Positions 1 through 6,000 of a DNA stretch of 64,000 nucleotides are shown piece by piece (the first letter of the stretch is position 1; each line of letters starts with the position of its first letter). The position numbers were made by a program. Origin of the DNA: Escherichia coli O127:H6 str. E2348/69 (lineage in GTDB: Bacteria; Pseudomonadota; Gammaproteobacteria; Enterobacterales; Enterobacteriaceae). The stretch lies in the NCBI RefSeq assembly GCF_000026545.1, contig NC_011601.1. One strand, written 5' to 3'.

Positions 1-3000
1 GCAACGGCACGACCGCTTTCCAGGGTACGGAAAGAGTCACCGTGATCTTTGGCGCTGATGATGCGCATATTCATTTTTTGCTCTTCATTCAGTTTGTTGA
101 GCAAAACTTCAGAGGTGGTGCCGGAAGTGACGACTACGGCTTTGCCTTTCAGGTCGGCAAAATCTTTGATATCGCCGCCCTTTTTGGTCAGCAGGCGCGT
201 ACCGACCACGAAAATAGTGTCAGAGAAAGCCGCCTGTTTTTGGCGTTCGGCATTGTTGGTGGTAGAACCGCATTCAAAATCGAAAGTGCCGTTTTGCAGC
301 AGTGGAATACGGTTTTGTGAGGTGATCGGAATCAATTTCACCTGTAAGTCTGGTTTGTTGAGTTTCTTTTTCACTGCTTCAACAATGGCGTTGGAGTAAT
401 CCTGCGAGTAGCCCACCACTTTTTGCTGATTGTCGTAATAAGAGAAAGGTACTGAAGATTCACGGTGACCGACGACAATCACGCCGTTTTTGGCGATTTT
501 GTCCAGCGTGCTGCCTGCTGCCGGGGCGGCGTCATCTGCCTGTGCCAGTCCTGCGGAAAGCGCCAGGGCCAGGATTGCTGTGGCAGGTTTACGTAATTGC
601 ATATCCAACTCCTTTATCTTCTGCGTTAAAAACGCATGGATACCCGTTGTGAGTGTTTGTGTTGTTATCATCTGCGACTTTATTGTGCAGTGTTGTGTTT
701 GTTAGGTAACATTTAGTTTGGATAAATGTAAAGATATTGATGTTTTATTGTTTATTTTTGCGAGGTGCGCCGCACCATTCCGAAGCAAAATTCTTAAACC
801 GCACCTTTTTGGTGCTACCGCTGATTTGTGGTGGTGCAACCCGGTTGCGTTGCGGCTGATTTCATTGCTTACACAGTAAATAAAGCAACTTACATGCCAA
901 AAAATACTTAGGGGTGAATTAATTACGATTGTAATTTCAGTTTGAAAAAGTCATATTTCGGACAGTGTTAACTTTTCGGTGTGGGACGTTTGCCGGGATG
1001 ATAACTACACACGGGAAAATGCTTTTTACTAGTCTTTTCAAGGAAGAATCACCTTATGTCTGCATCTTCGGTTAAGCCGTTAAATGTTCAATTACCCGCA
1101 ATAACCCTGATCCTTTTTGCGCTCTGTGTTGGGATATTTTGTTACCTCGCACAATGGATGAGTTACGAAGAAGTCGATCAATCCGCACTCATCCATCTCG
1201 GCGCTAACGTTGCCTCTCTCACGTTGTCGGGTGAACCCTGGCGCTTATTGAGCAGTGTCTTTCTGCACAGTAGTTTTTCCCATTTGCTGATGAATATGTT
1301 TGCACTCCTGGCGGTGGGGACAGTAGCGGAACGGATACTGGGGAAATGGCGACTCCTGATTATCTGGTTATTCTCCGGCATCTTTGGTGGGCTGATCAGC
1401 GCCTGTTATGCGTTACGCGAAAGTGAGCAGATAGTCATCAGCGTTGGGGCATCCGGGGCAATTATGGGAATAGCGGGCGCTGCGATAGCAACACAGCTTG
1501 CTTCAGGTGCGGGCACACACCATAAAAACCAGCGGCGAGTATTTCCTCTGTTGGGTATGGTGGCGCTGACACTGTTGTATGGTACCCGGCAAACAGGAAT
1601 AGATAACGCTTGCCACATTGGCGGCCTGATTGCGGGGGGCGCGTTGGGTTGGCTGAGTGCGCGTTTAGTTGGGCAAAATCGGCTCGTTACGGAAGGCGGG
1701 ATTATTGTTGCGGTCACTCTTCTTCTGACCGGGACTATCTGGCTTGTGCAGCAGCAGATTGATGAATCAGTTTTACAGGTCAGGCAAAGCCTGCGTGAAG
1801 CGTTTTATCCGCAGGAGATTGAACAAGAGCGACGACAAAAAAAGCAGCAGTTAGTGGAGGAGCGCAACGCCCTCAGGGAAACATTATCCGCTCCGGTAAG
1901 TCGTGAGCAGGCCAGTGGTGATTTACTCGCTGAGATTGCCGATATCCATGATATGGCGATCAGTCGGGATGCTAATACGTTGTATGCCGCAATTGAAAAC
2001 ACGAACAGCATTGTTGTTTTCGACCTCGGACAAAAGAAAATCCTGCATACCTTTACAGCGCCCATAGCGAAAGAAAAGTCAGTCAAACATTGTGGTGGCT
2101 GTAAAGATCAGGGCGTCAGATCGATGGCATTAAGCCTGGATGAAAAGTTGATTTATGCGACTTCATTTGAAGCGAATGCGTTATCGGTCATTAACGTGGC
2201 GACGGGGGAGATTATTCAGTCGATTACCACCGGCGCACATCCTGACAGCCTTATCCTCTCGTGTGATGGCACAAAAGCCTGGGTGATGAATCGCACCAGC
2301 AATAGTGTGTCAGCGATTGATCTGGTGGCTTATCAGCATGTGGCGGATATCCCGCTGGAGAAATACGACGGGACGGGGATGAGCGGTAAACCAGGCGCCT
2401 GGGTTATGGCACTTTCCCCGGATGAAAAAACATTACTGGTTCCGGGAGCAGGCAGAGGTAACATCGTGCGGTTCAATACCATCACGCATCAGAAAGAAGA
2501 CTTTCCCGCAGGTAATGCGCGTGGTGTCGTTTCTGCGATGGGATTCCGACCAAAAAATGGTGAGGTTATTTTTGCCGATAGCCAGGGGATTTCACGTATA
2601 AGAGCAGAGGATCAACAAGCCAGCATTATGACGCAATGGTGTCGCAGGAGCGTTTATTCCGTTGAGGGTATTAGCCCGGACGGTCAGTATTTAGCGTTGG
2701 TGTCATATGGCCTGCAAGGTTATGTCATCCTGCTCAATATTAATGCCGGGCAGATTATTGGCGTTTATCCTGCCAGCTACGTTAATAATCTTCGTTTTTC
2801 AGCGGATGGTAGAAAGATATTTGTTATGGCGAAGAACAGGTTAATCCAAATGGACAGGACGCGCTCGATTGATCCGCAGGCAATTATTCGGCATCCCCAA
2901 TATGGCGATGTGGCTTGTATCCCTGAAACGTAAGAAAAAAGGGGCATGATAATCATGCCCCACAACTCAATGAGAAAGTATGTTTTGTTGATACCGGATG

Positions 3001-6000
3001 CGGTGTGAACGGTTTATCTGGCCTGCAAAATTGATGCAATTTTGCAGGCCAGCGCATCATTCACATCAACGTTTACGTCGCTGACGCAGACTCATCAGCA
3101 CAGCTGCAAAACCAAACAGTGCCGTCAGCACCCACAGTGGCCAGTTGCCGGTACGTGCGTACGGGGTGAGTCCGGTGGTCGGCGTTACGTTAGTGGTTAA
3201 CACCTCGCGGGTGAACTGCGGGATCATCGCCTGAATCTCACCCTGCGGGCCAATCACCGCCGTAATGCCGTTGTTGGTGCTGCGCAACAGTGGGCGCGCC
3301 AGCTCCAGCGCACGCATTCGCGCCATCTGGAAGTGCTGCCATGGACCAATAGACTTACCAAACCACGCATCGTTGGAGATAGTCAGCAGATAGTCGGTAT
3401 CCGGGCGGAAGTTATCGCGCACTTGCTCGCCGAGAATGATTTCGTAGCAAATGGCCGCAGTAAGTTGAATGCCATTCAACGACAGCGGTGGCTGAATATA
3501 TGGTCCGCGGCTGAATGACGACATCGGCAAATCAAAGAACGGTGCTAACGGACGCAGAATCGACTCCAGTGGGACAAACTCGCCAAACGGCACCAGATGG
3601 TTTTTGTTATAGCGATCGGCTGATTCGTAGCTGTACGGTGCACCTTTACCCAGTGTGATGATGGTGTTGTAGGTATCGTAGCGGTTCTGCTTATTGAGAC
3701 GCGCGTCGACAATCCCGGTGACCAGCGAGCTACCTTTATCGCGCAACTCACCGTCCAGTGCTTTGAGGAACGGTTGCTGATTAATTTCCAGATCGGTTAT
3801 CGCCGACTCCGGCCAGATAATCAACGATGATTTGCCCATCAGCGGTGCCGTTGCGTTGTAGTAAATCTTCAGCGTATTAAGTAGCTGGTCTCCGTCCCAT
3901 TTCAGCGATTGCGGAATATCGCCCTGAACCATCGAAACCTGAATAGTTTTTTCCGGTTGCGGGGTAAACCACTGGATGTAACGCAGCGGGAAGGGAAGGG
4001 CAAACAGCACGACGGCCACCACCAGCGGACGCCAGTTGCGTTTGACCAACGCCAGTGCCAGCAGGCCGCTAACCATCATCAGCAGGAAGTTAATGGCTTC
4101 CACGCCCATTATCGGTGCCAGCCCTTTTAACGGGCCATCAATCTGGCTATAGCCGAACTGTAACCACGGGAAGCCTGTCAGTACCCAACCGCGCAGAAAC
4201 TCGGTCACTTGCCAGAGAGCAGGGGCGGCAATCGCCACGCGCAGCCAGGTGGTTTTCGGCCACAGACGCGACAGCACGCCAGCAAACAGTCCGGTATACA
4301 GCGACAAATACGCCGCCAGCAGTACCACCAGGAAGATGTTAACCGGGCCAGGCATTCCGCCAAAGGTCGCGATGCTGACATAGACCCAGTTAATACCGCT
4401 GCCAAAGAGGCCAAATCCCCAGCAAAAGCCAATAGCGGCAGACTGGAGTGGACGGCGGTTAAAGGTCAACGCCTGAAGCCCCATCAGCGAAATAATCGCC
4501 GCAGGCCAGACATCGTAAGGAGAGAAGGCCAGCGTTCCGCAGGCACCGAATAATAACGCCAGCAGCAGGCGAATGCGCTGGCGTTCAATTAATGAGGCAA
4601 AAGCCATGTAGTTATCTATCCAGTTTCGGTTTTATTCATCCAGCTTCGGCTGGGGTGAGTCATCCGGGATTTTGACATGAACCTGAATAATACGCCGACT
4701 GTCGGCCATCGCCACTTTGAACTGGTAACCGTCGATGTCGATGGTTTCGCCACGCGCCGGAAGATGCCCAAATGCCTGCATCACCAGACCACCGATAGTG
4801 TCAACCTCTTCATCGCTAAAGTGGGTGCCGAACGCTTCGTTGAAGTCTTCAATAGAAGCCAGTGCGCGCACGGTCCAGGTATGACGACTCAGCTGACGGA
4901 AGTCGATATCATCTTCTTCGTCATACTCGTCTTCAATCTCACCAACAATCAGTTCCAGGATGTCTTCAATGGTCACCAGACCGGAAACCCCGCCGAATTC
5001 GTCAATGACGATCGCCATGTGGTAACGCTGAGAGCGAAACTCTTTCAGCATCCGGTCTACGCGCTTACTTTCAGGAACGACAACCGCCTGACGTAACACT
5101 TTGTCCATGCTGAAGGCTTCAGCATCGCTGCGCATAAACGGCAGCAAGTCTTTCGCCATCAGAATCCCTTCAATGTGATCTTTGTCTTCGCTAATCACCG
5201 GGAAACGTGAGTGGGCGGACTCGATGATGACATCAAGGCATTCGTCCAGCGTCTGGTTGCGTTTCAGGGTAATCATCTGGGAGCGGGGGATCATGATGTC
5301 GCGAACGCGTTGGTCTGCGATGTCCATCACCCCTTCGAGCATATCGCGCGTATCTTCGTCGATAAGGTCGTTCTGCCCGGAATCACGGATCAGCGCCAGC
5401 AGTTCGTCACGGTTTTTCGGTTCACCGTGGAAAAGTTGGCTGAGTAACAGGGAGAAAAATCCCTTCTTGTTGCTTATCGTGTCACTACTGTGTGAATTGT
5501 CGTCGCTCATGGCGTCGTATGGGTTCTCATGTTAGTTAATCAAAACGCCGTCGTTAATCACCAACGGCGGGGACGTCTGCCAGTCAAATGCCTGGCAAAT
5601 TATTCTTTCTCGGCAATGTACGGATCCTCATAGCCCAGAGCAAGCATAATCTCTGTTTCGATGGCTTCCATTTCTTCTGCTTCGTCATCTTCGATGTGAT
5701 CGTAACCTAACAAATGCAGACTGCCGTGCACCACCATATGCGCCCAGTGCGCCTCCAGTGGTTTGCCTTGCTCCTGAGCTTCCTTCTCAACCACCTGACG
5801 GCAGATAACCAGATCGCCCAGTAGCGACATTTCCATGCCAGGCGGCACTTCAAACGGGAAGGAGAGCACGTTGGTCGGCTTATCCTTACCGCGATAGGTC
5901 AGATTCAGACTGTGGCTTTCGGCGGTATCGACCACGCGAATAGTCACTTCCGATTCTTCCTGAAACTGCGGGATCACCGCATTCAGCCATGTTTGAAACT

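What the first reader, a model, noticed from the sequence alone, without database searches (positions are those of the whole stretch)
2934..3065. Stacked secondary-structure elements downstream of lnt: terminator hairpin plus a perfect 15-bp inverted repeat
Between the convergent rhomboid-fusion gene and lnt lie a GGGGCATGA/TCATGCCCC hairpin with A/T tracts and, 60 bp away, CTGGCCTGCAAAATT-N5-AATTTTGCAGGCCAG with a REP-like sequence adjacent. Such composite palindromic units can act as terminators, mRNA stabilisers or recombination hotspots, and this is a junction between core and accessory DNA.
Basis: seen in the sequence. Interest (0 to 1): 0.25.

Follow-up and report, generated by a model that had tools for sequence, protein, structure and literature searches.

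The report
Decayed REP/BIME plus lnt terminator
The two hairpins after the lnt gene are an ordinary transcription terminator and a worn-down copy of E. coli's common REP/BIME repeat, sitting in a spacer that differs between strains; both kinds of element are long known.

Summary
The window is E. coli E2348/69. The 132-bp spacer between a rhomboid-family gene (+) and lnt (-) holds two hairpins.

1. Hairpin 2941-2961 has a 9-bp stem and 3-nt loop (-16.3 kcal/mol). A T6 run follows it only on the minus strand, so it is a canonical intrinsic terminator for the ybeZ-ybeY-corC-lnt transcript. It is kept in every allele of the spacer.

2. The palindrome has 16-bp arms and a 3-nt loop (3018-3052), not 15 + N5. 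It is the longest perfect inverted repeat in the 64-kb window.

The palindrome is not a separate element beside a REP. It is the tail-to-tail junction of a decayed BIME-1. A y-type REP lies at 2992-3026 (E = 2.3e-5 against a REP profile trained without it). It is followed by a shortened L linker that has lost its IHF core, and by an internally deleted z1 REP.

The 35-mer is single-copy per genome and absent from 100,044 other species' genomes. The locus is polymorphic across 5,426 complete E. coli genomes:
- intact-type BIME-1 allele: about 1,102 genomes
- 77-bp deletion allele: about 206
- E2348-type allele: about 202

K-12-type genomes lack the whole 2,170-bp segment, and the breakpoint is at the lnt stop codon. 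This is an ordinary, known kind of feature.

The parts
2931..2933 (+). TAA stop codon of the 625-aa rhomboid-family / beta-propeller gene (1056-2933)
   Evidence: ORF list; Pfam Rhomboid, E = 1.2e-28; RefSeq annotation WP_001276764.1.
2934..2940 (-). U-tract of the lnt terminator (TTTTTTC on the minus strand). It abuts the rhomboid stop codon.
   Evidence: Terminator scan: hairpin followed by TTTTTTCTTA on the minus strand; sequence read directly.
2941..2961 (-). Intrinsic-terminator hairpin: 9-bp stem with 6 G-C pairs and a 3-nt loop
   Evidence: -16.3 kcal/mol, z = -3.5. Kept in all seven sequences examined, representing three allele classes, at -13.9 to -16.3 kcal/mol. A T->C variant gives G.U on the lnt-strand RNA but A.C on the + strand.
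2962..2991 (-). A/U-rich, weakly structured spacer of the lnt 3'UTR. Its 3' end (TTTGTTGAT) resembles the flank (TTTGTTCAT) to the left of the y REP in the K-12 asnB-umpH BIME-1.
   Evidence: TTGTTCATGCCGGATG in K-12 asnB-umpH against TTGTTGATACCGGATG here.
2992..3026 (+). Decayed y-type REP (palindromic unit), TACCGGATGCGGTGTGAACGGTTTATCTGGCCTGC. Its tail is CTGC instead of CTAC, and its own hairpin no longer folds.
   Evidence: nhmmer with a REP profile trained without this locus: 22.6 bits, E = 2.3e-5 in 264 kb. Seed profile: E = 1.6e-4. Folded alone, z = -0.5 and +0.86.
3027..3043 (.). Shortened linker AAAATTGATGCAATTTT. It aligns to the 5' part of the BIME-1 L linker; the IHF-like core is missing.
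   Evidence: Alignment A2 against three canonical BIME-1s. The WATCAANNNNTTR scan finds a 1-mismatch site in the canonical BIME-1s and in the ST131-type allele, and none here.
3044..3063 (-). Remnant of the inverted z1 REP (GCAGGCCAG + CGCATCATTCA). It has an internal deletion, and the head CGCATCA is retained.
   Evidence: Other alleles carry GTAGGCCTGATAAGCGT(A/C)GCGCATCAGGCA at the same position. The REP profile gives no independent hit.
3018..3052 (.). Perfect palindrome with 16-bp arms and a 3-nt loop. It is the tail-to-tail junction of the decayed BIME and overlaps the three parts above.
   Evidence: On lnt mRNA the stem begins 13 nt after the stop codon, and an outer helix (GUGAAUG/CGUUCAC) begins 1 nt after it.
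3066..3068 (-). lnt stop codon (TGA). This is also the right breakpoint between the rhomboid haplotype and K-12-type genomes.
   Evidence: lnt is 513 aa here (...RQRRKR*) and 512 aa in K-12 (...RQRRK*).

Best explanation
The spacer is the 3' untranslated region of lnt, the last gene of the ybeZ-ybeY-corC-lnt operon. It consists of two known kinds of element.

1. Next to the lnt stop codon lies a decayed BIME-1: a y REP, a truncated L linker and an internally deleted z1 REP. Its two REP tails, with the remaining linker, now form a perfect 16-bp hairpin.
2. About 56 nt further downstream lies a canonical Rho-independent terminator: a 9-bp G+C-rich stem followed by U6. It ends lnt transcripts just before the stop codon of the convergent rhomboid gene.

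Inferred working. RNA polymerase coming from lnt transcribes the BIME remnant and terminates at the U-tract. The very stable BIME hairpin would then act as REPs do elsewhere, as a barrier to 3'-to-5' exonucleases once the terminator is nibbled away. Because it starts within 15 nt of the stop codon, it may also slightly damp lnt translation.

At the DNA level the element is a relic. It has lost the IHF core and the GTAG/CTAC tetranucleotide that the REP transposase needs. It is probably neither mobile nor IHF-binding.

The perfect symmetry is best explained by one intramolecular template-switch (quasipalindrome correction), or by deletions within an ancestral BIME-1. It need not reflect selection for a new function.

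Shown here: sequence anatomy, REP homology, allelic series, terminator pattern. Inferred: termination, mRNA stabilisation, the translation effect and the mutational origin.
For: Terminator:
- The consensus scan finds it on the minus strand only.
- The hairpin is -16.3 kcal/mol.
- Hairpin and U-run are conserved in all seven sequences examined, representing three allele classes. Bases 2880-2962 are 97.6% identical even in genomes whose downstream spacer differs.
- The only stem substitution seen (ARB0349, AST85) stays paired as G.U in lnt-strand RNA but becomes A.C in + strand RNA.

REP/BIME identity:
- 2994-3026 scores 22.6 bits, E = 2.3e-5, against a REP profile built from 11 other REPs in 264 kb of E. 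coli DNA with this locus masked.
- The recalled y and z1 consensus sequences were recovered exactly in K-12 (L009:49425-49459 and 49495-49524).
- The element aligns end to end with canonical BIME-1s at gyrB-yidB, pgm and asnB-umpH, apart from one 28-nt gap.
- Other strains carry a canonical z1 REP, an L linker and an IHF-like core at the same site.

Polymorphism:
- About 1,102, 206 and 202 genomes carry the three alleles.
- Ton-Hoang et al. (PMC3333891) describe BIMEs as variable between strains.

No selection for pairing:
- ARB0349 has 1 uncompensated arm mismatch and AST85 has 3.

Position and context:
- The hairpin starts 13 nt after the stop codon (1 nt with the outer helix). REPs within 15 nt of a stop codon are reported to down-regulate translation (Liang et al. 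2015, as summarised in PMC12306157).
- Quasipalindrome template-switching in E. coli is described in PMC7202029.
- Operon context comes and bioRxiv 10.1101/2023.03.20.533420.
Against: - No transcript 3'-end, RNA-stability or protein-level data for this strain were available, so every functional step is inferred from sequence.
- The REP's own hairpin is no better than shuffled sequence. Only the derived junction palindrome supplies structure, and whether REP-type effects transfer to it is untested.
- The defining GTAG/CTAC tetranucleotide is CTGC on both arms. The right-hand REP is not recognisable on its own by the profile.
- The 28-nt gap can be placed in more than one way. The mutational path (one template switch or several deletions) is therefore not resolved.
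- The 77-bp allele lacks the big hairpin and is carried by about 206 genomes. Whatever the hairpin does is dispensable.
Confidence: 0.85

Rival explanations
1. The hairpin at 2941-2961 is a bidirectional terminator shared by the two convergent genes, and the palindrome is a second terminator or attenuator for the rhomboid gene's transcript.
For: The hairpin lies 7 nt after the rhomboid stop codon and folds equally well on the + strand (-16.6 kcal/mol). The palindrome also folds on the + strand (-25.8 kcal/mol). From my own knowledge, not checked here: convergent gene pairs in E. coli often share bidirectional terminators, and BIMEs have been reported to attenuate transcription.
Against: On the + strand neither hairpin is followed by a T-run (ACAACTCA after the first, CGCATCATTCAC after the second). 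The scan reports no + strand terminator. The common T->C variant breaks a pair on the + strand RNA (A.C) but not on the lnt strand (G.U).
Confidence: 0.15
2. The perfect palindrome is a functional DNA site, for example an operator for a dimeric regulator, a gyrase/IHF-type nucleoid site or a recombination site. On this reading it is maintained by selection and is not a relic.
For: It is the longest perfect inverted repeat in 64 kb. BIME-1 L linkers frequently carry an IHF-binding site (PMC3333891); gyrase binding at BIMEs is my own recollection, not checked here. The element sits at a haplotype breakpoint.
Against: - It lies between two convergent 3' ends with no promoter-like site.
- The IHF-like core is deleted.
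- Close alleles carry 1-3 uncompensated arm mismatches.
- Most genomes with the same flanking genes have a different sequence or a deletion at this position.
- The 35-mer occurs nowhere else.
Confidence: 0.05
3. The palindrome is the end or footprint of a mobile element, such as a MITE, an IS terminal repeat or an attachment site, that brought in the rhomboid gene.
For: The 2,170-bp rhomboid segment is present in 1,552 of 5,426 genomes and ends at this spacer. K-12 has an IS5 in the corresponding gltI-lnt spacer. A paper retrieved (PMC1525189; title and abstract only) reports REPs as targets for insertion sequences.
Against: - There is no second copy of the arm sequence at the other end of the segment or anywhere else in the window.
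- There is one place per genome.
- The only annotated gene in the segment is the rhomboid gene, so no transposase or integrase gene is annotated there.
- The sequence is fully explained as y REP + L linker + z1.
Confidence: 0.03

Closest known systems
BIME-1 (bacterial interspersed mosaic element type 1, also called RIP/RIB: y REP - L linker with IHF site - z1 REP) of E. coli
   Same: - Same order and orientation of parts: left-flank motif TTTGTT(C/G)AT, y REP, linker starting AAAAT, then an inverted z1 head CGCATCA.
- It aligns with the gyrB-yidB, pgm and asnB-umpH BIME-1s.
- It is extragenic, directly after a stop codon and single at its locus.
- Other strains have a recognisable BIME-1 at the identical site.
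   Different: - A 28-nt gap removes the IHF-like core, the 3' part of L and the GTAG-proximal half of z1.
- The y REP has 6 substitutions in 35 bases and no longer folds on its own.
- The tetranucleotide is GCAG/CTGC.
- The two tails plus linker remnants form a perfect 16-bp palindrome, which canonical BIME-1s do not have.
REP / palindromic unit, y type
   Same: It is 35 nt with 29 of 35 positions identical to the y consensus TGCCGGATGCGGCGTGAACGCCTTATCCGGCCTAC, which is found verbatim in K-12. The profile E-value is 2.3e-5. Another REP in the same genome (barA-gudD spacer, L010:31186-31219) has the same TTTTGCAGGCC tail variant.
   Different: The stem is degraded and the CTAC tetranucleotide is mutated. 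Ton-Hoang et al. showed that the REP transposase needs the GTAG tetranucleotide and the stem mismatch, using an ACGA block mutant (PMC3333891). This copy is therefore probably not a substrate. That is an inference, because the single change GTAG->GCAG was not tested.
Rho-independent (intrinsic) terminator
   Same: A G+C-rich 9-bp stem, a 3-nt loop and a run of six U directly after the stem, on the strand of the upstream operon.
   Different: Nothing unusual. The U-tract overlaps the complement of the region just after the convergent gene's stop codon, and there is no matching U-tract for the opposite strand.
Quasipalindrome template-switch products (Ripley model; thyA and lacZ reporters in E. 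coli)
   Same: An imperfect inverted repeat (the BIME tail-to-tail junction) appears to have been converted to a perfect one. Several substitutions and a net deletion are confined to one arm (mechanism described in PMC7202029).
   Different: The event is inferred from comparing alleles and was not observed. Stepwise deletions between short direct repeats (AGG...AGG) would give the same product.

Membership tests
REP (E. coli palindromic unit) | Sequence similarity to the y/z1/z2 consensus over 30-40 nt | tested here: met
   Left unit 2994-3026: 22.6 bits, E = 2.3e-5, with a profile trained on 11 other REPs and this locus masked. Right unit: no independent hit; only head and tail fragments remain.
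REP (E. coli palindromic unit) | Conserved GTAG tetranucleotide 5' of the hairpin foot (CTAC on the other strand) (PMC3333891) | tested here: not met
   Both arms read GCAG/CTGC. One other REP in the same genome, in the barA-gudD spacer, shows the same variant.
REP (E. coli palindromic unit) | Imperfect palindrome able to fold into a stem-loop with a 2-base mismatch | tested here: not met
   2992-3027 folded alone gives -9.6 kcal/mol (z = -0.5) on the + strand and -3.6 kcal/mol (z = +0.86) on the - strand, no better than shuffles.
REP (E. coli palindromic unit) | Extragenic, high-copy dispersed family | tested here: met
   The element is extragenic, lying between two stop codons. In 264 kb of E. 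coli DNA 20 places match the family profile at E < 0.05, some being the two strands of one REP. This particular 76-bp sequence is single-copy per genome.
BIME-1 | y REP and z1 REP in inverted orientation, single copy at the locus | tested here: inconclusive
   The y unit is present. The z1 unit is reduced to about 20 nt with an internal deletion. Its identity rests on alignment with alleles that have an intact z1 at the same position.
BIME-1 | Long (about 35 nt) conserved L linker carrying an IHF-binding site | tested here: not met
   The linker is 17 nt. No match to WATCAANNNNTTR with up to 1 mismatch, whereas three canonical BIME-1s and the ST131-type lnt allele each have ATTCAAnnnnTTG.
BIME-1 | IHF actually binds | not testable with these tools
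   Needs EMSA or ChIP.
Intrinsic terminator | G+C-rich stem-loop immediately followed by a U-run on the transcribed strand | tested here: met
   Minus strand: GGGGCATGATTATCATGCCCC followed by TTTTTTCTTA, -16.3 kcal/mol.
Intrinsic terminator | Transcript 3' ends map to the U-run | not testable with these tools
   No transcript data for E2348/69 were available. The preprint read says the operon's transcripts have not been fully mapped.
Rfam RNA families | Score at or above a family's gathering threshold | tested here: not met
   The best hits in 2500-3500 are chance-level: mir-5350 19.4 bits against a threshold of 90, and DapZ 16.8 against 56.

The most novel reading that the evidence does not exclude
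The three natural alleles of the lnt 3'UTR are the perfect 16-bp hairpin, the intact BIME-1 and the 77-bp deletion. Each places a different structure 1-13 nt after the stop codon of the essential gene lnt. They may set different Lnt levels or mRNA half-lives in different E. coli lineages. If so, the E2348-type hairpin, created in one template-switch event, would be a lineage-specific tuner of lipoprotein maturation and not a neutral relic.
Probability: 0.12. Interest if true: 0.3.

Novelty: already known. Interest (0 to 1): 0.1.

Why it matters
It matters little on its own. It is a clear example of how REP/BIME elements decay and diversify at one locus, with three alleles within one species and a perfect palindrome made from an imperfect one. 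It also shows that such elements mark the edges of strain-specific DNA. For annotation, it shows that a striking 'perfect palindrome' next to a REP can simply be part of that REP cluster. The three-allele series downstream of an essential gene could serve as a ready-made natural test of the reported rule that REPs within 15 nt of a stop codon damp translation.

Tried and rejected
- Rfam scan of 2500-3500 with permissive E-values: only chance-level hits.
- Whether the 35-mer or the 76-bp element is a dispersed repeat. In 5,426 E. coli genomes there is a median of one place per genome that has any match (at most two). The exact palindrome (loop free) has 0 hits in 100,044 species genomes.
- Terminator 20-mer in the same collection: one unrelated hit inside a larger palindrome of a Muribaculaceae MAG. 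The origin of the rhomboid haplotype outside E. coli was therefore not traced.
- K-12 RefSeq annotation, in the hope of curated REP features: none are listed in this copy. REPs were harvested instead with nhmmer from 264 kb.
- The roughly 70 genomes with an 86% partial match elsewhere turned out to be ordinary BIME-1s. The two examined lie at gyrB-yidB and next to pgm. They served as comparators.
- Promoter scan of the spacer: none.
- MITE, attachment-site and operator readings: rejected (see the rival explanations).
- Liang et al. 2015 could not be fetched. Its result is cited through the summary in PMC12306157.

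
Full report
**Where we are.** The window is the chromosome of E. coli E2348/69. Bases 2880-3120 are 100% identical to NZ_CP059840.2 3551593-3551833. The annotated order is gltI (-), a rhomboid-family intramembrane protease gene (+, 1056-2933), then lnt, corC, ybeY, ybeZ and miaB, all on the minus strand. Pfam confirms a Rhomboid domain with a beta-propeller-like C-terminal half in the first protein, and LNT_N + CN_hydrolase in the second. The finding covers the 132-bp spacer between the two convergent stop codons: TAA at 2931-2933 and TGA at 3066-3068 on the minus strand.

- The first inverted repeat is GGGGCATGAT/ATCATGCCCC at 2941-2961. It folds as a 9-bp stem with a 3-nt loop at -16.3 kcal/mol.
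- The second is one base longer per arm than reported: CTGGCCTGCAAAATTG-ATG-CAATTTTGCAGGCCAG at 3018-3052, 100% complementary, -26.6 kcal/mol on the lnt strand.
- It is the longest perfect inverted repeat with a loop of 10 or less in the whole 64-kb window. In 30 first-order Markov simulations the longest arm was 9-11 in 28 runs, none in one and 14 in one.
- The whole spacer folds about 8 standard deviations better than dinucleotide shuffles on either strand.

**The first hairpin is the lnt terminator.** The consensus scan reports it on the minus strand only: hairpin, then TTTTTTCTTA. On the + strand the hairpin is preceded by A6 and followed by ACAACTCA, so there is no U-tract for the rhomboid transcript.

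The hairpin and its U-run are kept in all seven sequences I examined, which represent three allele classes, at -13.9 to -16.3 kcal/mol. Bases 2880-2962 remain 97.6% identical in genomes whose downstream spacer is quite different.

The one stem substitution seen (T->C on the + strand in ARB0349 and AST85) stays paired as G.U in the lnt-strand RNA. It would be an A.C mismatch in the + strand RNA. This is a small hint that the lnt strand is the one that matters.

The operon is described as ybeZYX-lnt, with transcripts 'not fully mapped' (bioRxiv 10.1101/2023.03.20.533420). I had no transcript data, so termination itself is inferred.

**The palindrome is part of a REP cluster, not a thing beside one.** To its left, 2992-3026 reads TACCGGATGCGGTGTGAACGGTTTATCTGGCCTGC. 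That is 29 of 35 positions identical to the y-REP consensus TGCCGGATGCGGCGTGAACGCCTTATCCGGCCTAC. I recalled that consensus from memory and then recovered it verbatim in K-12, together with the exact z1 consensus next to it.

I harvested 11 REPs from 264 kb of E. coli DNA with this spacer masked, built a profile and searched the unmasked sequence. The element scored 22.6 bits, E = 2.3e-5, ranking just below the training sequences. So the left unit is a genuine REP by sequence.

It is a decayed one:
- Its own stem folds no better than shuffles.
- Its terminal tetranucleotide is CTGC instead of CTAC.

Ton-Hoang et al. found that the tetranucleotide and the stem mismatch are required for binding and cleavage by the REP-associated transposase (PMC3333891).

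**Alignment with canonical BIME-1s explains the rest.** A distant search turned up about 70 genomes with an 86% partial match elsewhere. The two I examined are ordinary BIME-1s, at gyrB-yidB and next to pgm. They have the structure y REP, a roughly 35-nt L linker (AAAATCATGCAAATTCAATACATTGCAGGAGTCTC) and an inverted z1 REP.

Aligned with these and with the K-12 asnB-umpH BIME-1, the E2348 element matches as follows:
- It matches from the left-flank motif (TTGTT(C/G)AT) through the y REP and the first part of L.
- It then has a 28-nt gap.
- It resumes at the z1 head, AGCGCATCA.

The gap removes the IHF-like core (ATTCAAnnnnTTG). That core is present with one mismatch to WATCAANNNNTTR in all three canonical BIME-1s and absent here. 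The gap also removes the 3' end of L and the GTAG-proximal half of z1.

The left arm of the palindrome is therefore the y tail (CTGGCCTGC) plus the start of L (AAAATTG). The right arm is what is left of L plus z1.

Turning a BIME-1 right half into the exact complement of the left arm needs several substitutions and deletions, all confined to one arm. A single intramolecular template switch would be the most economical route. This quasipalindrome correction is documented in E. coli and makes imperfect inverted repeats perfect (PMC7202029). Stepwise deletions are not excluded. This step is inference.

**The locus is polymorphic and the palindrome is not conserved.** Among 5,426 complete E. coli genomes, 1,552 carry the rhomboid gene next to lnt. 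Their spacers fall into three classes:
- A 126-bp allele with a canonical z1 REP (GTAGGCCTGATAAGCGT(A/C)GCGCATCAGGCA), a full L linker and a 5'-truncated y REP. About 1,102 genomes, including ST131-like strains.
- A 77-bp allele in which everything between the two REP heads is deleted, leaving TGCCGGATACATCAGGCA. About 206 genomes, including Nissle 1917.
- The 132-bp E2348 type. About 202 genomes, of which 45 are identical over the 76-bp core.

Within the E2348 type, ARB0349 has one arm mismatch and AST85 has three. None is compensated, and stability drops from -25.3 to -16.3 kcal/mol. That pattern fits drift, not selection for pairing. Strain-to-strain variability of BIMEs is a known property (PMC3333891).

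**Is it a dispersed repeat?** The 76-bp element occurs at a median of one place per genome that has any match, and at most two. The exact palindrome with a free loop is absent from one representative genome of each of 100,044 species.

**Core/accessory junction.** With IS5 removed, K-12 aligns with E2348/69 from gltI to about 300 bp beyond it, and again from the last lnt codon onward. In between, K-12 has 100 bp, including its own decayed REP, where E2348/69 has 2,170 bp. The E2348/69 segment holds the rhomboid gene, the terminator and the BIME remnant.

The right breakpoint is the lnt stop codon. As a result Lnt is 513 aa here (...RQRRKR), 512 aa in K-12 (...RQRRK) and 512 aa with a different tail in ST131-like strains.

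**How it most likely works.**
- Shown: the anatomy above.
- Inferred:
  - lnt transcripts run through the BIME remnant and terminate at the U-tract at 2934-2940.
  - The 16-bp hairpin is extended by an outer GUGAAUG/CGUUCAC helix that starts 1 nt after the stop codon. It would block 3'-exonucleases as REPs are reported to do.
  - Because it begins within 15 nt of the stop codon, it could lower Lnt synthesis. This effect was reported for REPs by Liang et al. 2015, summarised in PMC12306157.
- All three alleles keep some hairpin 1-13 nt after the stop codon. The 77-bp allele has only a weak one, so the large hairpin is dispensable.
- At the DNA level the element has lost the IHF core and the transposase determinants, and is best seen as a relic.

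**Rivals.**
- A bidirectional terminator is unlikely, because there is no + strand U-tract.
- A protein operator or a selected DNA site is unlikely. The element sits between two 3' ends, there is no promoter, close alleles carry uncompensated mismatches, and most carriers have a different sequence there.
- A mobile-element end or attachment site is unlikely. There is no second copy in the window, only one place per genome and no transposase or integrase gene annotated in the segment.

**Verdict.** The feature is ordinary: a decayed BIME-1 plus an intrinsic terminator in a strain-variable 3'UTR. It is a known kind and of low interest. Its modest value is as a natural three-allele series for testing REP effects on an essential gene.

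Noticed in passing
window 1056-2933 (+): A 625-aa protein with an N-terminal Rhomboid domain and a beta-propeller/WD40-like C-terminal half. It is an accessory gene inserted between gltI and lnt in 1,552 of 5,426 complete E. coli genomes. It is absent from K-12 and frameshifted in at least one strain (13P484A). Its function is unknown, and no canonical terminator follows it on its own strand.
   Followed up: partly
window 3066-3080 (-), lnt 3' end: The C-terminus of the essential Lnt protein differs between haplotypes (...RQRRKR*, ...RQRRK*, ...RARKR*; 513 or 512 aa), because the haplotype breakpoint and REP-associated variation reach into the last codons.
   Followed up: partly
window 52096-52128: The second-longest perfect palindrome in the window (14-bp arms, 5-nt loop): GCCTGATAAAACGCAGCGAGCGTTTTATCAGGC. 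It has REP-like ends (GCCTGAT.../...ATCAGGC) and a weak hit to the REP profile. It may be another REP whose stem has been made perfect.
   Followed up: no
window 19377-19445: A REP-like perfect palindrome (GATGCGACGCGGCAGCGTCGCATC) is followed directly by a symmetric hairpin, AAAAAGCGGCAG...CTGCCGCTTTTT, with A and T runs on both sides.
   Followed up: no
window 10033-10104 (-): Two REPs in direct orientation downstream of ubiF. One ends CCGACCTAC and the other is degenerate. They are orthologous to K-12 L009:46308-46379.
   Followed up: no
L009:39047-39343 (K-12, downstream of lnt) and L009:37852-39046: K-12-type genomes have their own decayed REP (CCGGATGCGGCATCAGTGCATTATCCGG; E = 0.013 against the REP profile) and a hairpin without a U-run after lnt. 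MG1655 also carries IS5D in the same gltI-lnt spacer. REP-like sequence thus follows lnt in every haplotype seen, but the copies are not orthologous.
   Followed up: partly
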